Positions 12,479-63,985 of a stretch of 64,000 nt of DNA are shown here, one piece after another. The stretch's first letter is position 1. Each line of letters begins with the position of its first letter. This stretch comes from Callorhinchus milii (taxonomy: Eukaryota), in assembly GCF_018977255.1 (NCBI RefSeq), contig NW_024704742.1, positions 42,720,001-42,784,000 on the forward strand. The letters run 5' to 3'. The notes under the pieces were generated by a model that did no database searches, was not told the DNA's origin, and worked only from the letters and a program-made list of their open reading frames with translations. The position numbers and the translations under genes were made by a program.

Positions 12479-13290
12479 TGTGTTCAGCCTGGCACAGTGG
12501 CAGCACTGTCGCCTCTGAATCAGAAGGTTGTAGGTTAAAGCCCCACATAGACTAAGATGACACTCCAATGTGGTGCTGGGGAGTGTCACATCTTCGGAGG
12601 TGCCGTCCTTCGGATGAAATGTTAAACCGCAGTCTCTCGAGGTCCTTGTACAGCTGGAAGTTAAAGATTCCTTGGCACGATTCAAAAAGAGGAGGGAGTT
12701 TATCCTAGTGTTCTGGCCAACAAATCGCTCAGATAAAATTGCTCACTCACTCCATGGTTATTTGTGGGATATTGCTGTGTGTAATTGGCTGCCTGGAAAG
12801 TCTGCCAGACAGTAATATCAGTGTCAAGCTATGGGGATTAAGCTGATTAGACTCCAACAGTACCCCAAAGCACACTCTAGGGTCCCCAAGCCTTGGCTCT
12901 TGCCAACTTGTGCCTAATACTTTCTGGAATTAGGCAAGCAGGCTAGGTCCCTCCAGGGAGAGAGTGTGCATCCCATTCCAACAAGTTATCTCTGGAATTC
13001 TCAGTTTGGTTTGGATACTCTTAAGCATGGTGAACCCACAACCCTCTGACTCAGAGGTGAGTGGGGACACTAACTGAGACAGGCTGACACTATGACCATC
13101 TAGCACAATACGAAGAAAGTTTCTTCTGCTGCGTGTGTCAGACACCCAGCTGCCCAAAACTAAAACACCCACAAAATACATAGTCAATCCTCTTCATGGT
13201 ATATCGTGTGAAGAGCCTTGAGATGCCTTGACGATGTGTAAGGCACTATGTAAAATCCAAGGACTATTATTTATTATTATTAATAATAAC
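12479..13290 (+). mobile_element. SacSINE1-like SINE split by nested insertions
   Basis: Head and body at 12479-12793; tail resumes ~13165-13290 ending in (TAT)n. Confidence 0.85.
12795..13165 (+). mobile_element. Unclassified poly(A) retroposon copy, itself interrupted by a minus-strand SINE head (~13033-13128)
   Basis: Aligns by eye to the reverse complement of 30698-31000; ends gtcagacacccagctgccc plus an A-rich tail. Confidence 0.85.
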
Positions 13291-27142: not shown

Positions 27143-27314
27143 ATCAGGAGGACAGACCGCCAACTCGCAGCAGGACTGTTGGGACAGTATCATCGACTCG
27201 ATAGCTAAACCCACATCACCGTTACAGTGGTCCAGAACAGTCTGCAGCAACTCCGGATTCTGTTGTGGGAACGCGTGGCAGAGCACCGCGAGGTGGGTCG
27301 GATACCCGTGGATG
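27143..27314 (-). pseudogene. Captured gene fragment resembling a DMRT-family DMA (CUE/UBA-like) domain
   Basis: Open frame IHGYPTHLAVLCHAFPQQNPELLQTVLDHCNGDVGLAIESMILSQQ matches the DMA pattern L..hFP.Q....L..VL..C.GDV..AIE; CpG-rich; no homology to the surrounding L2 or SINE. Confidence 0.75.
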
Positions 27315-27424
27315 TACAGTCAATTCACTTTACAGTCTATTCTGTGAAGCGCTTTGGGACGTCCTCCCGACGTGAAAAGCGCTATATCAAATGCAAGGAT
27401 TATTATTATTATTATTATTATTAT
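27315..27424 (+). mobile_element. Young SINE 3' tail fused to the DMA-like fragment
   Basis: Nearly identical to the 3' ~110 nt of SINE 51268-51593, including (TAT)n. Confidence 0.95.
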
Positions 27425-28855: not shown

Positions 28856-29127
28856 AGAGAGACCTGAGTTCAATTCCCGGCAGGGCGAAACCTTGGGCAA
28901 GTTTCCTTACTCCACACGCCTAATAATAATCCCTCCAAAACCCCAAACAATAATAAATTGGTCTTTTTCAATCTACGACTGTTTGTGGGACATTGCTGTG
29001 CGCAATTGGCTGCCGCATTCGCCCACAAATATAGTCAATTCACTTTACAGTGTGTTCTGTGAAGCGCTTTAGGACGTCCTCCCGACGTGAAAAGCGCGAT
29101 ATCAAATGTAAGGATTATTATTATTAA
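28856..29127 (+). mobile_element. Young tRNA-Ala-type SINE, 5'-truncated
   Basis: Near-identical to the body and tail of 51268-51593. Confidence 0.95.
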
Positions 29128-29149
29128 TAGCTCACTATGGATTGCTTGT

Positions 29150-29350
29150 ATATTAAATAGTAATTCTTGTATTTGACATAATGCCTATAATGTTGAAAAT
29201 TAGCTCAAAGCATTTCACTAAATTTCTGTGAAGTGTTGTACCTAGAGATTTGTAGGCAAACATGGAAACCAATTTGTGCACAACAAACAGCCCACAAACA
29301 CCCCTGAAGTAAATGATATATGCACGCACAGCAATGTCCCACAAATAGTT
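29150..29350 (-). mobile_element. Old SINE 3' part with a duplicated Deu core
   Basis: aatttgtgcacaacaaacagcccacaaac followed by gcacagcaatgtcccacaaa. Confidence 0.7.
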
Positions 29351-30579
29351 CACGGCTATTTAATGACCTCCTTGTACTATATTAAATGCCACAGTTATTT
29401 ATTACTATTTATATTTATCGCTGGCCTGCTGCCCTTCATGGAGCCTTTCCTGCCTCCCCCTTATCAAGCAGCACAGAAACATTGTGTTCCATGCAATATT
29501 TAATTCATCTCAGTTTGTACTTGTTCCAGTATCCTACAAAACTGAATGAAATTATTGACTTGTACATGTCTGTTGACTGGACCCATGCTCTGTGATCTGC
29601 TGTATTAATATATGCCTGGATTTACTGGACATCTTGTGACTCAGAACAGAAATGGGAGAGATTTTTTTTATCTGATTGTCTAGTATGGATTCAATTATAG
29701 ATGTATAACAGCATTGCTTTCATCCATCACATGAACCAGATTCCTATTACTATATAAAATGATCTCTTTTTGTGATTTTGTTTTAAAGAATTACATATAT
29801 TGATCTCGTGTTAACGCAGAGGAGTGTTCCACTTCTGAATTTGAATCAAGTTGTTGGTGTTGTTAATAGCATCTCCTCTTGTAAGAGTTGGATTTATTTC
29901 CCCATTGCCCAAACCACCCATCCTTTAGTGCTTCTGTGAATCAGACTGCCAATTTAATGGAAATAAGTACTAAATTACAGGCAGTTGTGCGCTGTGCTTT
30001 GCCCATGAACAATTGGACGAAGACTTCCAAAGGTCATTTCTCTCAGAGCTGTCAGATGCTGTCATTATACTGCACTTAGCAGTACAGAATTAACACCATC
30101 TGTGCAGTAGTGCGAGCCCAAAGCAGTTGAATTACTGCACAAGTCGCCGTTGGGGGGGAAAGAGAGTAACAGAGTTCATATGTGCACAGATTGTGATTAA
30201 AAAAAAGCCTTTTGCACTGCCGATGAAGGTTCTACTCATTGGAAGAACTGACAGTCAACTGAAAATAGAATGTGAGTAAAAAAGAAAATGTAGATTAAAG
30301 GTGAGTTTTATGAGGCTATGCTAGGTGGTGGAAGACCATCTCTTACTGTATTGGTACCAATGACCTGGGTACATCCTGGCAACATTATACTGCACTTGTC
30401 GTATCGTCACAATGGAAATCACTTCAGTTACTGGTAAGAGAAAACAGTTTATTGACAAGAACAGACAGCAGACTCACCACCAACAATTTTAAACCAAGGT
30501 CCCAGAAATGAAGCAACAGTAACCCAGAACCTGTGCATTGAAGCAGCATTTTGAGGCTTTGAGCTCATATAGTCTATTT

Positions 30580-31500
30580 ACACTCCAGTGCTGGGGAAAC
30601 ATTGCATCGTCTGAGGCGCCATCCTTCAGATGAGGCATTAAACCCAGGTCTTGTTTACCTATTTACATGGATGTTAAAGATCTCATTCCTTTTTTTTGGT
30701 CAGCTGGGTGTTTGACATATGCGTAAACCCATCACAATGCTTAAGAGTATCCAAACCAAGCTGAGATTTCCATGCATCCCACCTACATATGGAAATCTCA
30801 GAGATAGACTGTTGGAATGGAATGTACACTCTCTCCCTGGAGGGACGTATCCTGCTTACATAATTCCGGAAAGTATTAGGCCCTGGTTGGCAAGAGCCAA
30901 GGCATGGGGACCCCAGAGTGTGCGTTGGGGTACTGCTGGAGTCTAACCAGCTAAAACCACATTGCTTGCCATTGATATTGATGTCTGGCAAGCTTTCCCA
31001 CTGCTTGTTCAGCTAGGACTACCCTACCCATTAAGGCTTTGGCTTGCAGGGTTAACACGAGGTCGGTGGGATGACTCTGTGCCTCCAGACTGGTCTGCCG
31101 TTCCAGGTCCTGCCGATGAGCCAGGCTGGCTGTGATGACATCAGCAGTGCCCTGGAATACTGCGGACCCACCTGGCTCAGGAACCGGACTATCGAGCCCA
31201 ACACAGAGGGCTGACTCAATTCCGACATTCCATTCTCAGGCATGTCACCTTGGAGCCTGTTCAGTTCAAAGGAGATCCCACTTATCTCCCCAACCCCACA
31301 AGGACACTATTCTAAAAGAGAAGGAATTTTTTTCCGGTGCATGGCCAACAATCTCCCAGATAAAACTGGTCATTCGCTTTATGGCTGTATGTGGGGATTG
31401 CTGTGTGGACATTTGTTGCCATCTTCAACAAAGTACACTTTACAATAAATCTTGTGAAGTGCTGTGAGAAGTCTCAACAATATTCTTTATGATAATAATT
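30580..31500 (+). mobile_element. SacSINE1-like SINE split by the unclassified retroposon
   Basis: SINE body ends at gatgttaaagatctcat (~30687) and resumes at ggacactattctaaaagag (~31302). Confidence 0.8.
30690..31272 (-). mobile_element. Unclassified poly(A)-tailed structured retroposon (longest copy in the window)
   Basis: The T-run on + is poly(A) on the minus strand; terminus ...acacccagctgacc(A)n; TSD-like agatctca/agatccca; internal hairpin with a 13-bp stem; homologous to about 7 other loci. Confidence 0.85.
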
Positions 31501-31944
31501 TGCATTCATTATTATCTTCATTTTTACATATTGCTTTGTCCATCATGGCAAATGTACACAGGTTGAATAACAATTCAAACAGTTTAGAAAAACTCAAATA
31601 AATTTGAATGAGGTCTTAAATTAATTCCTGCGGTATCAACAAGGATAAGATATTGACAATCTTTTAAGGGTTGTAATGAACCAGAACAGAATGTAACACA
31701 AGAACGTGGCAGCAAATAAATCCCCATGTCCTGTTAAAGACGGGTAGAAAATGTGTGGATTAATTAAGTATGAAACTAGATTGAAGAGCAGGAATTATTA
31801 ACACAAATTTCCAGAGATAAATCAGAGCTAGGAAATAGATCTCCAACTGAAACAAATGAAACATCTAATTATTAAGAAAACAACAAGAAAGGTCTCAACC
31901 TCCTGCAAAGTTATTGCTAATTCACTGGTGTCATGGGAACAGCG

Positions 31945-32125
31945 TTTTCTTTGGTCAGCCGGGGGCCTGACACATGCGGAAAGCCATCACTGTATTTAAA
32001 AAAGGGTATCCAACCCAGATAGAGTTCCGCATATGTAAGCCACTATGAATGGCAATTTCCCTGTATCTGGATTGGAATGCGCACTTTCTCACTGAAGGAA
32101 TACACCCGGCTTACTTAATTTCAAA
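31945..32125 (-). mobile_element. Unclassified poly(A) retroposon 3' remnant
   Basis: tttctttggtcagccgggggcctgacacatgcggaaagccatcac. Confidence 0.8.
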
Positions 32126-32129
32126 TAGA

Positions 32130-32290
32130 ATTATAATAACAATCCTAGCATTTGATATGGCGCTTATCACATCGTCGAGACGTCAGTAAGCGCTTCACAG
32201 AATATACTGTAAAGTGAATTGATTGTGTATTTTGTGAGCGAAACACAGCAGCCAACTGCACACAGGAATGTCCCACAAACAGCTATGGAG
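32130..32290 (-). mobile_element. SINE 3' part
   Basis: aatcctagcatttgatatggcgc...gcgcttcacagaatatactgtaaagtgaattg...aatgtcccacaaacag. Confidence 0.9.
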
Positions 32291-33375
32291 TTCATGAAAG
32301 GTGCTATATAAAAGTGATTTGTAGCTGTTTTTTGTTTTGCAAGATCCTTTGCTCTTATTCTGATTCTTTCTATCTTTTTCTGTATTTTTTTGGTAGCTTT
32401 CCCCCCTTTTCCAATTTTTCGTCTTAAATTCTTTACTTGACTAGAACCATTTTGTTTCAGTTTCATCAACTCGTCATACTCTGAACTCAAAACTTTAGGA
32501 CTCTCATTGACTTCATCCTCTCCCATTTCTTGTTGCTTTTGTTCAAATTCTTGTTTTTCCATTTCAAATTTGACAAGATCCATTTCATCTCTAGGAAATT
32601 TAGCGCCTGTGAGGGCAAGATTATTTTTATCATCTTCTATATCTTTTTTCGCTACGGCAATCCCCTTTTTTAAATCTTCAATCTTTTCCTCAACACTTTT
32701 CTTTGTTTCTATTGGTGTGGTTACTTTGCCTTTATCTGTGTCCAAATCTTCCTTTTTGGGCTCTTTCTTCTGCTGTTTCTTTGTCTCCTCGTGTTTTTTT
32801 CCCATCGCTGATCTTGATTTCTCCATTGCTGTCACTGTCATTGCCCATACTGCTAGAGATTGAAGCTAACCTCTCGGGCTTCGGTCTCCTTCCTTGCGGC
32901 GTTGGCTTCTTCTTCTTGGCCACTGGCTCCTTGCCTCTGGGAGGTTTCTTCACAGAATCTGATCAGTACCATTGCATCAATCAAGTACTCATCTTCCTCA
33001 TCACTAATAGAGGATTCCTGATCAGAGCTGTCCAAGATTCCATGTTACTTTGATCGCACTTGATCTATCCTGGTTCTCTGCTGTTTGCTTGTCATTTTAT
33101 AATCTTTCTGTTCTGTCAGCTTTTCTCCTGTGTTCCTCTGGCATAGTTCCTTACAAGTTCTTGTTGTCTACTCTTGCCCATACTGGCTGCACACATAACA
33201 TTTCCCGTCTCCTGCTGGACCTCTCCGTAAAGGATGCAGTAACCCATATTTGTCACAGGTATCCTCTTTTATACTTCCTGGTCTTCTTTCATTGGTTTCC
33301 AGTTAATTGTTTATTTACTCTTATTGGGTTATTGAACAGTCTGTCATTGTCAATGTTTCAGTTGGATTTATAGGT
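32291..33375 (-). pseudogene. Gypsy-type gag C-terminal fragment: degenerate double zinc knuckle, acidic linker, long K/E-rich coiled coil
   Basis: TCDKYGLLHPLRRGPAGDGKCYVCSQYGQE*TTRTC (33153-33260) lies in the same frame as DSSDQESSISDEEDEYLIDAMV; frameshifts then lead into ~170 open K/E-rich codons. Confidence 0.65.
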
Positions 33376-33475
33376 ACAACAATAACAACTTGCATTTATA
33401 TAGTCTTCTTCACGCAGGGTAGCGTCTTGGAGCATTTAACAGAGCTTGATGCTGAGCTGGGGGGAAGTGACTGTA
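33376..33475 (-). mobile_element. L2 (second family) 3' tail
   Basis: acaacaataacaacttgcatttatatag..cttcacgcagggtagcgtc. Confidence 0.85.
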
Positions 33476-34099
33476 AGGAACTTATGTTTTTCTGTGCTAA
33501 CCCGATTGTCTTGTTATCACTGGTGTAGGCATTACTGTATTTAAAGCACGTCTGAATCTCCAATCCCAAGGGTGCAACACAATAAGGGGCACCAGCCACA
33601 TTGCCCTTTTTCTATTCTCTAACCTGCAGCTGCTGGTAGGTACCAGTTTGCTCTCACTCAGTTCAACAGTATATTATGCTTTTGGGGCTTCTCATTGGAA
33701 TTGACAAACTTATATAAAAATTGCTTTACCTTGAATTATATCCTTGGTTTAATTGTGAATGGATAGTGTTACTCAATTCTGAGTAAGATTGTATTTGGAT
33801 TTTATAGTAAACAAATGGCATTTAAATCAAGTTAATATGTTAATTCAATCTACAGGGAATATTATTGTGATGCATACTGGAGATTGGTTTGTATTGGAAA
33901 CAACATTTTTTTGACCAGATTTTATGATGGCATATGATGAAAACCAGACTGAGAGTTCTACATATGCACACCACCAATGCATAATTTTTATCTGGAATAG
34001 AAAACACACTCTCTCACTCAGAGAAATGCACACTGTTCACCTAATTCCAGAAAGTATTAATAATCCATGCATTTGATATAGCGCCTTATCCGTATCTCA

Positions 34100-34238
34100 G
34101 ACACCAGCAGCATCGATGAATGCACACTGCACCTCACCAAGCCAGTCAGGAACCTAAGCATCTTGTTCGACCCTCAATTGTACTTTCTCCTCCACATGTG
34201 TGCCATGACCTGCACTGCCTTCCACCACCTCCACAACA
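34100..34238 (+). mobile_element. L2 internal fragment
   Basis: aagccagtcaggaacctaagcatcttgttcgaccctc ([15 protein letters not shown]). Confidence 0.75.
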
Positions 34239-34344
34239 TTCTGACGAAGGGTCATGGATCCAAAGCATTGACTTACTTTCCTATCTCCATAGATGCTGCC
34301 TGACCTGCTGAGTGTTCCCAGCGACTTCTATTTTTGTTTCAGAT
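34239..34344 (+). mobile_element. Penelope-like pseudo-LTR remnant with a decayed hammerhead core
   Basis: ttctgacgaagggtcatggatccaaagc...agatgctgcctgacctgctgagtgttcccagc; same family as 47024-47236. Confidence 0.8.
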
Positions 34345-34700
34345 GTAGGTCGGCAAGAGTCGAGTGTTAGAGGAACCCAGAATGTGATGGTGTACTGCTG
34401 GAATTTAACCAGCTAAAACTGCATAGATTGTTAGTGTAAACACTGTCTGGCAAGCTTCCTGCTGCGCCTCCAGCAAGGAGCAATCTATCTGCTAAGACTT
34501 TGGCTTGGAGGTTTAACAGCAGCTGAGTGGGAAGAATCCCTGCCCCAAGTGATTTAGTCTGTACTCCAAGTCGGACTCCCTGGTCTTGTCATCAACAGTG
34601 CCTTGAAGTACTGCAAACCCTCCTGACTCAGCAGCCAGACTACCAAGATTCTGCTATTCCACTGCCATGCCTGATACTTTGGAGCAATCTCAGACCTGCT
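34345..34700 (-). mobile_element. Unclassified retroposon, internal/5' portion
   Basis: ggtcggcaagag...gtactgctggaatttaaccagctaaaac...ctggcaagctt; colinear with 30885-31260. Confidence 0.8.
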
Positions 34701-34929
34701 GAGGACTCACCCTAGTTTCTGGAGAGACATTATAAACACAGGTTTAATCATTACATTGATACCAGTTATTAGAAACTCACTGCAAACTGGAATTCAGTGG
34801 GAGCAGGTGACTCCTATTCTCATGATTAGTTTAATTATCTTCTTTGTGGACCATTAATTGTTAAGGTCCTAAAACAGGGCCTTGTCAGCAATTTACACAC
34901 TGTAACATTATGCCACCTAGTCTGTATTA

Positions 34930-35340
34930 AACTTGACCCCCACCCCCATCAATCCAGTCCTTGCTTCACTAGCTCCCTATTGGCAGAACAGATAGATTTA
35001 AAGATCCTCACACTCAACTCACTTCATGCCTTGGTACCTCCCTACCTCTCTGGCTTTCTTACACATCACTCCTCTACCCACTCCCTTCACTCATTAGCTC
35101 CAGCCTCCTCCCTCGTCTCCTCTGTGCATCATTGGTGGCCATGCTTTCAGCCATTATGCCCCAAGACTCTACCTTAATCCTTCTGTCTTGCGCCTCCTCA
35201 TCTGTCTTCAGATCACACCTGAAGACCTTCCTCTTTGAACGTGCCTACAGTCACCTCCTCTCTCTCCCTAGCTCGGTGTCTACTGTTAGACACTGTCTGG
35301 TGTGAAGGATGCTATATAAATCCAAGTTGTTATTGTCGTA
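34930..35340 (+). mobile_element. Old L2 3' fragment
   Basis: IDLKILTL..LHALVPPYLS remnant; tail aagttgttattg. Confidence 0.8.
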
Positions 35341-35542
35341 GTCCAACAGCATGGCCAGAAGGTCCAAGTAAAAGTCTAATCTCTCCATCGTTCCATCCTA
35401 TTTCAGATAACCCAGTAGATAGATGAAGTGTAACCAAGTACTATTTAAATTCCATACCACAAGATCACAAGAGCATGATGAAAAAGGCATTTGGGCCTAT
35501 TTAACCTAATTCTTCTAAATTATCCTGTCTACAATCTTGCCA

Positions 35543-35851
35543 TTATAATAAATAATAATAATCCTTGCATTTGATATAATGCTTTATCACGTCTTCTAGA
35601 CATCTCAAAGCGCTTCACAGAATATACGGTGAAGTGAATTGACTGTATATTTGTGGGTGAAACATGGCAGCCAAATCCACATAGGAGTCGTGAATTGAAG
35701 TGACCAATTTATTATTGTTTTTTTTCTTGAGGGTTTATTATCAGGCGTGTGGCGTAAGGAAACTTGCCCAAGGTTTTGCCCAGCCGGGAATAAAACCCAG
35801 GTCTCTCACTTGCAAGGCGAGTGCTCTAATCCCTGAGCTACAGGACTCCAC
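35543..35851 (-). mobile_element. tRNA-Ala-type SINE (older 'tagaa'-loop subfamily)
   Basis: Head ends ggactccac at ~35851; tail cacgtcttctagacatctc. Confidence 0.93.
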
Positions 35852-36474
35852 ATTATATCATCAAGCATTAGAGTTTTTGGCCTTAACCATCCTTTTTTGT
35901 AACCCATTACCCTCTGTATACATCAATTACCAGTAAGAAATCAACTTTAGAAATCTATGTCTAATAATTCTGAACTAAAGTTCAACAGGAAATACTGTCA
36001 GTGTAGCACTCATGACAAATCTCTCTGCATTTCTGGCATTCACCAGCAAGACAATTCATTTGGGCTATCATCCAATTTACCAGAATACATCACAGATCTG
36101 TTCAGGTGTTGTGGGTAAAGGAAGATATATGGAAGGAATATAAAAACTCAATCTCTTGTGATGAAACTGAATGCTGAAATTCTTGATTTGGGGAAGGGTT
36201 ACACAGTAAGTCTCACATGAAAACAGAAAGACATATGCTTGTCTATTCTTCACACTTCAGTCTCTATAGTCTGATACATATTTTCTGATATGAAATAATC
36301 TCTCAAATTGTACATCTTTCAACATCTGCAATAAAGTAACCCTAATGATAGAGCACAGGTTGTCTTAGATCTTACATTTTGATTAAAACACATCCAATTT
36401 AAATATAGAAGTGTATAATATTTCTCATGGTAACTGATTTGAACAATTTTTGTTTGTTCCTTTGGAATAATATG

Positions 36475-36905
36475 TTATTATAAGAATCCTTGCATTTGAT
36501 ATAGCCTTGGGATGACATCTCAAAGAGCTTCATAACATTCACTGTATATTTTATCAGGGAACACAGCAAGCAAATTGGTTGCTGTGTTCCCTTACAAAAT
36601 GCACAGCGAACTTACAAGATATCCCACAAACAGCCATGAAAGTGAATAGCCTGTTTGATCTGGGGGGATTATTGGCCAGGACACCAGGAGAAACTTCACT
36701 TTCAAAAAGTATATGGGATTTCTTTAATATCCCCTTGAACAGGCCTCAGTTTAATATCTCACCCGAAGGATCTCACCTCCAACAATGCAATATTCCCCAA
36801 TGGAGTGTCAGCCTAGATATGTAAGTTCAAAGTCCTGACCTAGGACTTGAATCCATAACCTTCTGACTCAAAGGTGACAGGACTATTAAGGCAGCCAAAT
36901 GATAC
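36475..36905 (-). mobile_element. SacSINE1-like SINE
   Basis: Tail, body and head (ccttctgactcaaaggtg) are recognisable. Confidence 0.85.
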
Positions 36906-36908
36906 GCA

Positions 36909-37137
36909 GATCTACAATTTCACCTAGTTTTAGCAAATAAGCCTATTTTGTTTTAAATTTCAAGATAGCACTGTGGAAGATTGTAAATTCAATTGTAATT
37001 TGGATGTCGGTTCTTTGTAAGAACTAACCAACTGGCTTCAAAATTGTTCCGCATTTTAGCATTTTGCACAATTCTGCATGATTTTAAAAAGAAAAAGAAA
37101 TGAGCTTATTGACTACAATTGGGTGAAATGTCATACC
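36909..37137. mobile_element. Old MITE-like palindromic element
   Basis: atttcacctagttttagcaaataagcctattt versus the reverse complement of the right end, atttcacccaattgtagtcaataagctcattt. Confidence 0.6.
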
Positions 37138-37624
37138 TAAAGTCTACACATATCTAAATTTAGTAAAATAACTAAAGGAAATGGGAGAAGCATTACAGTG
37201 ATGGATAAGGCAGTGGGATTTCATCATCAACCGATCAAATTACAATCAGGGGGTCAGATGAAACCACAAGATTAATAATAGGCATCATTGATTCCTCACT
37301 GATGTGCATATTATCAATGAGTTTGAGCTGCAGCAAATATGATAATGGATTTAATTGGCAGAATGCCTGTGGTATCATAATGAATCTCTGATAATCATAT
37401 TATAAAATTTTCAGAATTAATGACTTCCTTGCCAAGCCTTGAAATGTTTTAGACATTTTAATTAGCTGCTGCACTACAAGAACCTCAGAGAAATGTCAGC
37501 GATTATAAAACCCTCTGCAAATGTAAACTGTATTTTAAAGTGCAAACAAACATTATTCAAGTTCCACTTAGTGACTGTTCTCCGTGGGGGGATGGGGAGG
37601 TAAACTGGATCTCCTTGGAGTTAA

Positions 37625-41616: not shown

Positions 41617-41934
41617 ATCAGACTCCGGCTGCTCCATGTCTCCCGCCCGACCTGCCCTACCATCGGTGGCCGGGATTTCAGCCTCTCTGCCCCCACACTC
41701 TGGAACTCCATCCCACGCTCTCTTCGCCTCGCTTCCTCCCTTGCCTCCTTCAAGACCGGTCTCAAGACCCTTCTCTTCAACTGTGACTTTGGTCTCCCTC
41801 CCACCTCTTTGCCTTCCCTCACCCCTACACCACCCCTCCCCCATGCTCGGGCCCCGACACCCGACTGTTCAGCGCTTTAGGACGTCCTCCCGACATGAAA
41901 GGCGCTCTATAAATGTAATTTAGGTTCTTGTTGT
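41617..41934 (+). mobile_element. L2 3' fragment
   Basis: Similar to the reverse complement of 7322-7640; ggacgtcctcccgacatgaaaggcgctct. Confidence 0.92.
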
Positions 41935-48900: not shown

Positions 48901-49378
48901 AAATGATCCAGTGTGCAACTTTAGCTTTCTGTTTAAGCCATAGTTCTCCTTCCTTCTTCATGTTCGGTCTCTTACCGAGATTGCACACAAAATGCTGCCA
49001 AACCCTCATTCACTCCATTGTTTACACCAGACTTGATTTCACAAATACACTAATCATTCCCTAGTTTCACCATCCACAGGTTTCGAATCGTACAAATCTC
49101 CACCATCCACTAGTTCACCTGCACAAAACTCCACATGTCCTTGCCAGGCTCTACACCTCACACTCACTTATAAATTCCTTAATACGCTATAATTTTCCTA
49201 CCACTTTGATCTTCTCCCACTTCACTTTACTTCTACCCTTCTCTGCTTGGCAAATTTGTTACATCCTGCATCCCGTCTATCTCACCACTGCTGCTGAGTT
49301 TTCAGCAACTAGACACATTACCTGTGAAACCCCTTCCCTCGACCCTTCGATCTCACCCCCTCCCCATTTATCTTTAAA

Positions 49379-50621: not shown

Positions 50622-50818
50622 TGTTTTTTTTAGGTCAGCCGGGTGTCTGACAAATGCGGAAAACCTTTGCCACGCTTAAGAGTATCCAAACCAAGATTTA
50701 CATGCATTTCCACGCTGCTTGTCCAGCTAGGACCAAACGACCCGAAAGGGGTTTAGCTTACAGGGTTAACGGGAGCAAAGTGGGATGACTTTATGCCCCC
50801 AGTGACTGGTCTGGCCTG
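50622..50818 (-). mobile_element. Unclassified poly(A) retroposon, internally deleted copy
   Basis: ttttttttaggtcagccgggtgtctgacaaatgcggaaaacc...gcttaagagtatccaaacc...gctgcttgtccagctagg. Confidence 0.85.
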
Positions 50819-55796: not shown

Positions 55797-55952
55797 CTGT
55801 TTTTCTGGTCTGCTGCTCAATCCTCACTCCCTCTATCCCACAGTCAGAGGCCAGGCTTTCAGCCGCTAATGCTACAGCTCCATGAAACTCTCTCCTAAAA
55901 TCCATTTGCCTTCTCTCCCAGAATATCTCTATGTCTGTACTTTGGTCATTAC

Positions 55953-56486
55953 CTGGGCCAAAAGAAAAGTGAGTCCACACTTTTTCCGCAGAATCCACTA
56001 CGAACGCTCCTCTGCTACAAACACCCCACTCCATTACAAACCTGTACACATAGTGTGCTAGGCCCTGGGTGTCTCGCACTGTTTGCTCGACGCTACTACT
56101 GTGTGCAGAGCGGCTCCGGTCGCATGTGCGCGGGGTTTGTTGGGATCGCGGAAGCGGCGCGAGAGGGTAATTGGCTTTGCCAGCTAGTGAGTGTACCACA
56201 ATAGAATTACCAGCTTGCGTGACACTACTGCTGTCTATTTGCTAAACCCCAGCCTAAACTGAGCTCCTGCAAATAATTCTTGATAAGTGCTGTACTATTC
56301 AAATTAGCATTTTTAGTATTTTAAACAGAACTACATGTTTAATTTTTATCAATAAAGTGAAAACATGTAGGTTAACAGCATAATGCGTCTTTCAATAGCA
56401 CCAATCTACCCTCCGCAATTTTCCGCAAAACTTTTCACACTTCTCTGCATTTTGGCCAATATTTCCGCAGTTTTCTATCAGCCCAG
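55953..56486. mobile_element. Non-autonomous TIR DNA transposon, hAT-like (8-bp TSD GTCATTAC)
   Basis: Perfect TSD at 55945-55952 and 56487-56494; imperfect TIR ctgggccaaaagaaaagtg / ctgggctgatagaaaactg; repeated subterminal TCCGCA; inserted into an old L2. Confidence 0.85.
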
Positions 56487-60002: not shown

Positions 60003-61391
60003 TTTTCTGTGCCTTCTCAGACTACATACTATTCGCCAAGCAAATGATCTCTTCACAAGTGCTGCATCTGTTCCATCTACATGACAATGCATAAAAGTAG
60101 CCTGAGATTGTCCGCTCATTGATTTTCCCTCCTTCTATTTAGCACCTCATCTGATAGCTTGAATGTGTTCAGCAACTGAGAATGGAGAAAATTGTCAGCC
60201 TGAATCTGTGCGGCATCATTCTTTAGTATAGGCCATTGGGGGACCAATCTTGTGGCAACAATAGATACATTGAAAACCATTCATCTCAGAATTTCATTGC
60301 TCAGCTAATGTTAATATAATATATACCATCACTTTTCTGGGTATGATAGATTGCTTATTTTTAAGCAACTTCACTTAATGTGTGACATTAAGAAAATTCA
60401 ATTTCTGAATCAGAAAGATATCAGAACGGTTTGCCAAAAAATATGCTATGTGTCTTGTGATGATTTAAACTATTATACTTACACTAGAATCCAATTTGAA
60501 ACCATTCTAAAAGGCAATAATAAAATAATTTCATTTGTTCACTCAGCGACAAGCACTGCAGCTGCTCATTAGAAGCTGGTCATTTATCACACAAATTGTT
60601 TTACACAGACACTCAGGAAACATATTGCTAAGTGCTCTGCATTTTGTATTTTACATCAGCTTGACCCTATGCATTGTGCATATTTCTACCTTACAAATGA
60701 GAAAAATATACGACTGCAATGAAACCACATTTTCTCAAGGGGACTTTACACCTTGCAGTTTGAATGAGGTTGTACCCAATCGAAAACAACAACTAATGTA
60801 CTTGCATTTATGACACAACAACAACTTGCATTTATATACAGTAAGCTTCAAGGTCGTTAAGTGCTTATGCGGTGAAGGATCCCTATCACTCTCCACGTGA
60901 TCAGGCATTCCTCGCCACCTCCACATGATTAGATGATGCTCTTTCCTCTCTCGGTCCCCCCCTTACCCCGTTGCTGTATGTGATGCCGTTGATGTTACAC
61001 CCCGGGTCGGACGACGAGGAGAGTGTCAAGGTGTGAATGTGAGGTGTTCCGTTTGAGGTAGGTGCAGGAAACTAAGTTTTGACCCAGCAGCTGCTAAGTG
61101 CAGCACTGGCGTTACGAGTTACACAATTATTAACACAGCTAATGCAAATAAATTTAAATGATTTAATAGGAAATTCAATGGGACTTGGGAGATGTATGAG
61201 TTAGGTGATTATATGGATTATACAGATCAGATTTATGTAAGCTTTCCTGTAGCTCCCTTCATTCAAGTATATAAAAACATAAAGGGATCTGTCTTGAATT
61301 AGGCTATTTCGGGCATGACTTTTTAATTTGGCTCAATTCAGGTTTAGATGCATTTTGTTCCAAATCATGGTTGTGTGCGTGAGATGGGGCA

Positions 61392-63714: not shown

Positions 63715-63865
63715 ACAGGAAACAGCAATAAATTATATTTGTATAGCACCTTTCTCGTCGGGAGGACATCTCAAGACACTGGACAGTTAGGGATTTGGAC
63801 CCGAGTAGGGGGTTGGAATTAGGAGGGGTGGAGGGCAAAGAGAGTAGGGATAGGAGGATGACCAA
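63715..63865 (-). mobile_element. L2 3' end
   Basis: gcacctttctcgtcgggaggacatc...ggacccgagtaggggg. Confidence 0.85.
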
Positions 63866-63985
63866 AACCAGACAGAGTTCCACATATGTATGCCACCTAT
63901 ACATGGAAATTTTCCTTAGTCTGCAATGGAATGCGGACTCTCCCTGGAGAAATGTACCCTGCTTACCTAATTCCAGAAAGGACTG
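63862..63985 (-). mobile_element. Unclassified retroposon fragment
   Basis: ccacctatacatggaaatt...atggaatgcggactctccctggag...cctgcttacctaattccagaaag matches 30750-30872. Confidence 0.7.

What the first reader, a model, noticed from the sequence alone, without database searches (positions are those of the whole stretch)
32130..33475. Gag zinc-knuckle ORF with a long coiled-coil tail in place of protease, fused to a SINE tail
Seen: ~1.1 kb of purine-rich, coding-like minus-strand sequence. It holds a degenerate double knuckle (C..xG..H....xPA....C..C...G.....C), an acidic linker DSSDQESSISDEEDEYLID, a basic segment KKPPRGKEPVAKKKKP and ~170 uninterrupted K/E-rich codons. These run straight into a same-strand SINE 3' end. 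No LTR and no D[TS]GA protease motif is visible. Knowledge: in many vertebrate Gypsy elements this knuckle plus acidic linker is followed directly by the aspartic protease. Inference: this is a fragment of an unusual gag-only element, endogenous virus or domesticated gag gene, probably copied here by template switching from SINE RNA.
Basis: partly seen in the sequence, partly recalled or inferred. Interest (0 to 1): 0.7.

Follow-up and report, generated by a model that had tools for sequence, protein, structure and literature searches.

The report
Nexilin mRNA fragment fused to SINE
The supposed viral-coat gene with a long tail is a dead patchwork: a decayed retrotransposon scrap, an unidentified stretch, and a piece of the muscle gene nexilin that was probably copied back into DNA together with the tail of a short mobile element, which is a known kind of accident.

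Summary
The motifs exist, but not as one ORF. The knuckle frame has two stops, and the knuckle, basic and K/E segments lie in three frames. Contigs from 3 of 3 covering runs keep the stops. The knuckle is a decayed Ty3/Gypsy gag end (best of 2544 tiles, E 1.1e-4) with no protease behind it. The 3' half of the 'coiled-coil tail' (32571-32340) is not gag: it is nexilin (NEXN), 41 of 56 residues identical to Callorhinchus milii nexilin, 82 bits against at most 8.9 in shuffles. It is intronless across a probable exon 10/11 junction and abuts a 5'-truncated SINE of similar age (about 14-15% diverged). About 400 bases between gag and NEXN remain unassigned. The locus is single-copy at 90% identity or more, and carries frameshifting indels that differ between runs. 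Best reading (0.6): a dead SINE-primed, L2-driven template-switch chimera beside a Gypsy relic. The scan noted similar host-gene/SINE chimeras elsewhere in this genome (DMRT, WEE2, TSNAXIP1), none with NEXN. A gag-only virus or domesticated gag gene is not supported.

The parts
33375..33475 (-). L2 LINE 3' end; separate insertion at the upstream edge
   Evidence: 77% over 95 nt to the L2 copy ending at 48901; side-by-side tails
32976..33296 (-). Decayed Ty3/Gypsy gag end: double zinc knuckle (33257-33153), spacer, acidic linker (33032-32976); two in-frame stops; no protease follows
   Evidence: Profile of 68 natural Gypsy pieces: 19.4 bits, model positions 8-89 of 144, window 33296-33030. Protease Asp is model position 111. 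The linker itself is by-eye likeness to naturals.
32572..32975 (-). Unassigned purine-rich, coding-like stretch (basic segment, then K/E helix) with internal frame changes
   Evidence: Not nexilin. No relative. 98 stop-free codons, matched by 67 of 2000 shuffles.
32340..32571 (-). Nexilin (NEXN) coding fragment, C. milii residues ~392-471 (XP_007885442.1 numbering), sense, no intron
32134..32339 (-). 5'-truncated SINE 3' part with L2-type tail (CmiSINE/SacSINE1-CM type by inference)
   Evidence: Alignment with 11 other window stretches; 22 of 155 columns differ from the majority of 9 other copies; family description in PMC5499810
32293..32312 (+). 20-nt inverted L2-tail patch inside the SINE part
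   Evidence: 18 of 20 identical to L2 tails at 7359-7340 and 41894-41913
32561..32569 (-). 5' copy of a candidate 9-bp target-site duplication, at the NEXN 5' junction
32118..32126 (-). 3' copy of the candidate 9-bp duplication, about 7 nt past the SINE tail, inside repeat R
31945..32133 (-). 3' part of an older A-tailed repeat ('R'); the downstream flank of the insertion
   Evidence: 68% over 197 nt to the copy at 30878-30690
32170..32865 (-). 232-codon stop-free frame across the unassigned stretch, NEXN and SINE (this assembly's allele only)
   Evidence: indels in other runs

Best explanation
A dead chimeric retro-insertion. An L2 reverse transcriptase primed on the tail of a SINE RNA and copied about 205 nt. 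It then switched, at an A-rich micro-match, to a spliced nexilin mRNA and copied about 230 nt of its coding middle. The cDNA was sealed into a site that already held a decayed Gypsy gag end plus an unidentified coding-like scrap. It has since drifted without constraint, for very roughly 130-160 million years on the SINE clock of PMC5499810. Shown: identity of the NEXN, SINE and gag pieces, breakage, single copy, segregating indels. Inferred: spliced template, template switch, single event, age.
For: NEXN identity: the 120 listed hits (of 688 at E<=0.001) are nexilins by name or carry the nexilin segment. tblastn with masking gave E 1e-13 for 2 of 6 nexilins tried. Profile score 82.4 bits against at most 8.9 in 500 shuffles. 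NEXN abuts the SINE directly and in the same sense. Equal age: SINE 22/155 = 14%; NEXN at least 19 base changes in 56 codons, about 15% of my estimate of ~126 replacement sites. Human residue 392 is in exon 10 (PMC8359989) and 435 in exon 11 (PMC9306924). The fragment covers human-equivalent ~400-479 without an intron; my recall puts the junction after residue 417. Dispersed copy: NEXN lies on a 69.3-Mb contig, while scan notes place this window on a piece over 101 Mb, assuming one assembly. A candidate 9-bp duplication brackets NEXN+SINE (12 of 6000 random windows, 17 of 1046 local); L2 chimeras have 1-9 bp duplications (PMC4476161). No constraint: a 1-nt indel at 32857 in 2 of 4 runs and indels at 32363-32384 in 2 runs; both knuckle-frame stops are kept in 3 of 3 covering contigs. 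Simulated neutral decay to the observed identity leaves no stop in about 37% of trials.
Against: The candidate duplication is offset about 7 nt from the tail end, lies inside repeat R, and was found after looking at several junction pairs. Gag, the unassigned stretch, NEXN and SINE are all on one strand, and the unassigned stretch is in frame with NEXN (about 1 in 6 by chance), which fits one RNA origin better. Divergence from NEXN is uneven (2 of 22 then 13 of 34 residues; about 1% of simulations, split chosen afterwards). The exon junction position is recall, bracketed only to residues 393-435, and was not checked in this species. No parent NEXN DNA was available, so there is no dN/dS and no base-level junction.
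Confidence: 0.6

Rival explanations
1. The whole gag + unassigned + NEXN chain came from one RNA. Either a non-autonomous Gypsy element had captured host mRNA pieces by LTR-type template switching (then copied from, or cut by, a SINE), or one L2 event switched templates several times.
For: All pieces are in sense and the unassigned stretch is in frame with NEXN; 182-codon frame matched by 1 of 2000 shuffles. LTR-mediated and multi-parent retrocopies are documented in zebrafish, chicken and mouse (PMC5131818 section 6). Contigs break at 33296-33297 with raised depth in the DNA-like run (119 against 15), a hint that the gag edge is repeated elsewhere.
Against: No LTR, and no Gypsy sequence 3' of NEXN. 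Single copy at 90% identity or more. No protein relative of the unassigned stretch. The candidate duplication starts at the NEXN edge, not at the gag edge.
Confidence: 0.22
2. Independent pile-up: a NEXN fragment (DNA repair patch or truncated retrocopy) landed first, and a SINE later inserted next to it with a deletion.
For: 26.5% of the window has a second copy within the window itself, so adjacency to a SINE is common. The 5' part of repeat R is not found next to the insertion, so a deletion happened somewhere.
Against: Matching ages, same strand, a direct junction with no spacer, and the candidate duplication.
Confidence: 0.14
3. One reading: a functional domesticated gag gene, or a gag-only virus or element, with its own coiled-coil tail.
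For: The knuckle is Gypsy-like. The long frame models as helices, with low confidence (mean pLDDT 62, single sequence). One probable RNA run has contig depth 60-88 here against 0-36 in nearby unique pieces.
Against: The tail is half nexilin. Two stops and two frame changes are present in independent runs, and frameshifting indels segregate. No homolog among 1.84 billion representatives.
Confidence: 0.04

Closest known systems
Template-switch chimeras of cellular RNA with L2 or L2-dependent SINE tails (U6/L2 and U6/Mon-1 in platypus, U6/AnolisSINE2 in anole; PMC4476161, passages seen)
   Same: 5'-truncated cellular RNA piece in sense, upstream of a short SINE/L2 3' part; duplication short (1-9 bp) or absent.
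   Different: The 5' partner here is the coding middle of an mRNA rather than U6 snRNA. The duplication is only a candidate.
LTR-mediated retrocopies (Tan et al. 2016, PMC5131818; abstract and section 6 seen)
   Same: Internal partial mRNA piece in sense next to Gypsy-type sequence, possibly several parents.
   Different: Gypsy sequence on the 5' side only, 400 nt away; no LTR; the 3' side is a SINE.
Processed pseudogenes of cartilaginous fishes (bioRxiv 10.64898/2026.06.26.734816, passages seen: 14,081 retrocopies, 95.7% species-specific, 15.7% ORF-bearing)
   Same: Dead, lineage-specific mRNA-derived copy.
   Different: Internal fragment with no 3' UTR or poly(A); ends in a SINE tail.
Ty3/Gypsy gag-protease junctions with a CPA-type double knuckle (natural examples)
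   Same: Knuckle spacing and neighbouring residues; acidic linker.
   Different: Broken, and truncated before the protease Asp (81-124 residues after the first Cys in 50 naturals).

Membership tests
Ty3/Gypsy LTR retrotransposon (intact or gag-only) | Gag zinc knuckle similarity | tested here: met
   Best of 2544 tiles, E 1.1e-4; 0 of 2000 shuffles and 0 of 2000 Cys/His-fixed shuffles reach it. Pfam, PDB and phmmer found nothing relevant. The training pattern was chosen by me from the window's spacing.
Ty3/Gypsy LTR retrotransposon (intact or gag-only) | Protease/pol downstream | tested here: not met
   No motif and no profile score in 3 frames
Ty3/Gypsy LTR retrotransposon (intact or gag-only) | Flanking LTRs | tested here: not met
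   No LTR-sized direct repeat in 29000-37500
Ty3/Gypsy LTR retrotransposon (intact or gag-only) | Capsid domain, primer site, polypurine tract | not tested
   Only ~80 unassigned bases lie between the knuckle region and the upstream L2 tail
Domesticated gag gene | Intact ORF fixed in the species | tested here: not met
   Stops in 3 of 3 covering runs; segregating frameshifts
Domesticated gag gene | Single copy | tested here: met
   Depth 15-16 over 32711-33112 against 11-18 in most unique flanking bins of the DNA-like run, at 90% identity or more
Domesticated gag gene | Conserved orthologs under purifying selection | tested here: inconclusive
   No protein homolog; no other holocephalan genome searchable
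SINE/L2 template-switch chimera | Cellular RNA piece directly 5' of a truncated SINE/L2 3' end, same sense | tested here: met
SINE/L2 template-switch chimera | Short target-site duplication round both pieces | tested here: inconclusive
   9-bp candidate, offset about 7 nt; chance 0.2-1.6% per junction pair
SINE/L2 template-switch chimera | Both pieces of one age | tested here: met
   About 14% and about 15%; rough, different yardsticks
SINE/L2 template-switch chimera | RNA template (intron loss) | tested here: inconclusive
   Human junction bracketed to residues 393-435; the fragment starts at ~400; exact site recalled; C. milii gene DNA not available

The most novel reading that the evidence does not exclude
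A holocephalan Gypsy-derived element or gene once replaced protease/pol with a K/E tail that includes, in frame, most of the nexilin exon needed for actin binding (exon 11; PMC11640418, passages). This locus would be a SINE-primed copy of that RNA, and it may still be transcribed. That would be a gag protein tethered to actin by a captured host segment.
Probability: 0.1. Interest if true: 0.65.

Novelty: new member of a known kind. Interest (0 to 1): 0.27.

Why it matters
As it stands it is one more example that stringent L2 machinery can copy ordinary mRNA pieces when a SINE tail supplies the priming site. Published cases with L2 are mainly U6 snRNA (PMC4476161), and this scan has noted several host-gene cases in this genome, so the pattern is more interesting than the locus. 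It also shows how a pile of unrelated purine-rich pieces can mimic a gag ORF with a coiled-coil tail. It would matter much more if a parent element with gag joined in frame to nexilin's actin-binding segment were found.

Tried and rejected
Own genome: not held. Knuckle by standard searches: Pfam none relevant at E<=1, phmmer on 1.84 billion representatives 0 hits, PDB 2 chance hits, NCBIfam none. Whole region as decayed nexilin: rejected; only 32571-32335 scores, and the best upstream frame has 2.5 bits or less. Unassigned stretch: no relative among longer proteins (394 candidates, none at E<=10; near and shorter lengths not searched), Atlas blank twice, viral contigs 0 of 40 candidates, PDB 1 chance hit. 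Internal tandem duplication suggested by a 12-mer: rejected, 252 of 1000 shuffles score as well. A second junction 8-mer: 73 of 6000 by chance, not used. Assembly artefact: rejected. Splicing to the DMA piece or a host gene: no skip in the colinear contigs, but the joints table was cut (3720 rows hidden) and the laid stretch stopped at 30500. The DMA piece found no homolog. Host exons: 150 of 233 non-repeat ORFs scanned gave only one L2 RT hit; some others were scanned; short exons would be missed. Expression: no holder is on record as RNA; contigs give no strand or level, so the depth in X3 is a hint only. Rfam: only a SINE tRNA head at 35776-35847. The AlphaFold model was too weak for a fold search. 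Exact NEXN exon 10/11 edge: not found in searches or reads 33, 34, 59, 62, 63, 66; supplements of PMC11640418 and PMC12405182 could not be read and may hold it; none of the 150 nexilin proteins fetched skips exon 11. A nexilin retrocopy or gag-nexilin fusion was not seen in listings of searches (0 of 12 listed, of 126, contain 'nexilin'), 93 and 97.

Full report
Observation. They are not one ORF. The knuckle frame has stops at 33170-33168 and 33047-33045, and the knuckle, basic segment and K/E run lie in three frames. A stop-free frame runs 32865-32170 (232 codons; longest of 233 non-repeat ORFs); its last ~56 codons are SINE. Within 33300-32320 it has 182 codons, matched by 1 of 2000 dinucleotide shuffles. 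No own genome was available. Scan notes call the genome elephant shark, and the best protein hit is Callorhinchus milii.

The tail is half nexilin. Searching the 161-residue K/E run among longer proteins gave 688 hits; the 120 listed are nexilins by name or carry the nexilin segment. With low-complexity masking and composition correction, tblastn gave E about 1e-13 for 2 of 6 nexilins, 8e-10, 1e-4 and 0.18 for three, and nothing for one. A nexilin profile scores 32571-32335 at 82.4 bits (500 shuffles: at most 8.9), while the six upstream frames score 2.5 bits or less. Codon alignment covers C. milii residues ~392-471 with no intron; 41 of 56 core residues are identical. In human NEXN, residue 392 is in exon 10 (PMC8359989, passage), residue 435 is in exon 11 and exon 11 can be skipped in frame (PMC9306924, passages), and a donor lies at c.1473+1 (PMC12554398, passage). 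The fragment spans human-equivalent ~400-479. I recall the 10/11 junction after residue 417 but could not confirm it, and intron conservation in C. milii is assumed. A spliced template is therefore probable, not shown. Exon 11 is needed for the second actin-binding domain (PMC11640418, passages). NEXN lies on a 69.3-Mb contig, whereas notes place this window on a piece over 101 Mb, so the copy is probably dispersed.

The knuckle is Gypsy gag. Standard searches were blank. I collected natural Gypsy pieces with a knuckle pattern (2 viral and 121 metagenome loci). Of 118 distinct ones, 52 have a protease motif in frame. A profile from the 68 long enough ranks the knuckle tile first of 2544 window tiles (19.7 bits, E 1.1e-4; best unrelated 11.5) and above all 2000 shuffles, and above all 2000 shuffles that keep Cys and His fixed (max 13.7). 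The pattern was chosen from the window's spacing, so the test is not fully independent. The match ends at model position 89; the protease Asp is position 111, and nothing scores there in any frame. No LTR-sized repeat was found. Upstream lies an unrelated L2 3' end.

The middle 400 bases (32975-32572) are unassigned. They are coding-like (98 stop-free codons; 67 of 2000 shuffles), not nexilin, not an internal duplication, and without relatives.

The 3' junction. Alignment with other window copies shows SINE likeness from about 32339 to 32134, directly after the last nexilin codons, with a 20-nt inverted L2-tail patch inside. C. milii SINEs share their ~160-nt 3' end with the L2-2_CM LINE (PMC5499810, parts 1-2 of 6 read); the family assignment here is inference. 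This copy differs from the majority of 9 others at 22 of 155 columns. The nexilin piece needs at least 19 base changes in 56 codons, about 15% of replacement sites by my estimate. The two pieces are thus of similar age, and nexilin has changed at about the neutral rate. A 9-mer stands at the NEXN 5' edge (32569-32561) and about 7 nt past the SINE tail (32126-32118). Chance is 12 of 6000 random windows or 17 of 1046 local ones, but it lies inside the flanking repeat and several junction pairs were examined, so it is a candidate only.

Independent runs. Contigs of 4 runs were laid on 30500-36500. Three give one colinear contig over 32536-33297 with 4-5 substitutions each, all listed, none at the two stops: the breaks are real. 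A 1-nt indel at 32857 is present in 2 of 4 runs, and indels at 32363-32384 in 2 runs, so frames differ between alleles. Of five substitutions checked in the long frame, three change the residue. The DNA-like run X2 has depth 15-16 over 32711-33112, like unique flanks: single copy at 90% identity or more. Run X3 (RNA by guess) has depth 60-88 here against 0-36 in nearby unique pieces; no holder is on record as RNA and contigs give no strand or level, so transcription is a hint. Simulated neutral decay to the observed identity leaves the nexilin core stop-free in about 37% of trials, so the open frame needs no selection.

Mechanism. Most likely (0.6), L2 reverse transcriptase primed on a SINE RNA tail, switched to nexilin mRNA, and inserted the chimera beside an older Gypsy relic. 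U6 chimeras with L2 and with L2-dependent SINEs, with 1-9 bp duplications, are described in platypus and anole; the same paper notes that processed pseudogenes are rare where stringent LINEs dominate (PMC4476161, passages). The main rival (0.22) is one RNA origin for gag + unassigned + NEXN, as in LTR-mediated retroposition (PMC5131818, abstract and section 6). It is favoured by common strand and the in-frame join, and disfavoured by the lack of LTR or 3' Gypsy sequence and by the position of the candidate duplication. Independent pile-up (0.14) and a functional gag gene (0.04) are less likely. Results against my reading: the offset of the duplication, the in-frame join, the uneven divergence (2 of 22 against 13 of 34), and the unverified exon edge.

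Novelty. A new member of a known kind. The scan had noted DMRT, WEE2, TSNAXIP1 and RAP1GDS1 pieces beside SINE or element tails in this genome (unchecked except that I found the DMA domain); none concerns nexilin. I saw no report of a nexilin retrocopy or gag-nexilin fusion in the listings of searches. Retrocopies are common in cartilaginous fishes (bioRxiv 10.64898/2026.06.26.734816, passages). Interest 0.27; the boldest reading not excluded (a parent gag element carrying nexilin's actin-binding segment in frame) has probability about 0.1 and would deserve 0.65.

Noticed in passing
window 27150-27319 (-): DMRT-type DMA domain piece (Pfam PF03474, E 1.8e-9) between an opposite-strand SINE tail and an L2 fragment; already followed up by the scan (e1-7812720).
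   Followed up: partly
window 30690-31200, 31945-32133, 33934-34059, 34348-34647, 63851-63980, 12795-13033, 50625-50813: An old A-tailed repeat ('R'). Two copies (32133, 34059) carry a SINE/L2-type tail at the same internal position and a third (63980) begins there, which may mark a preferred L2 target.
   Followed up: partly
window 32523-32521 (-): The copy has Gly where C. milii nexilin has Glu and the other vertebrate nexilins aligned have Gly: either ancestral, dating the copy before that change, or a single back-transition.
   Followed up: no
window 32565-32398 (-): Divergence from nexilin is uneven (2 of 22 then 13 of 34 residues), and contigs branch at a 30-mer at 32536-32565 shared with another sequence, probably the parent gene.
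   Followed up: partly
window 31850-35600: In run X3 (RNA by guess) contigs cover most of the stretch from just below a full-length SINE (head 35776-35847, minus) to about 31850, with highest depth at 33297-32390 and none beyond 35927. This may be an unspliced transcript primed at the A-rich stretch near 32390.
   Followed up: partly
window 55900-56400 and 60750-61200: CpG-rich non-repeat stretches (observed/expected 0.7-0.9) with no Pfam hit; possible regulatory elements or exons.
   Followed up: no
window 36900-37350 (+): Second-best, non-significant score to the Gypsy profile (11.5 bits, E 0.04, non-knuckle positions); probably compositional.
   Followed up: no
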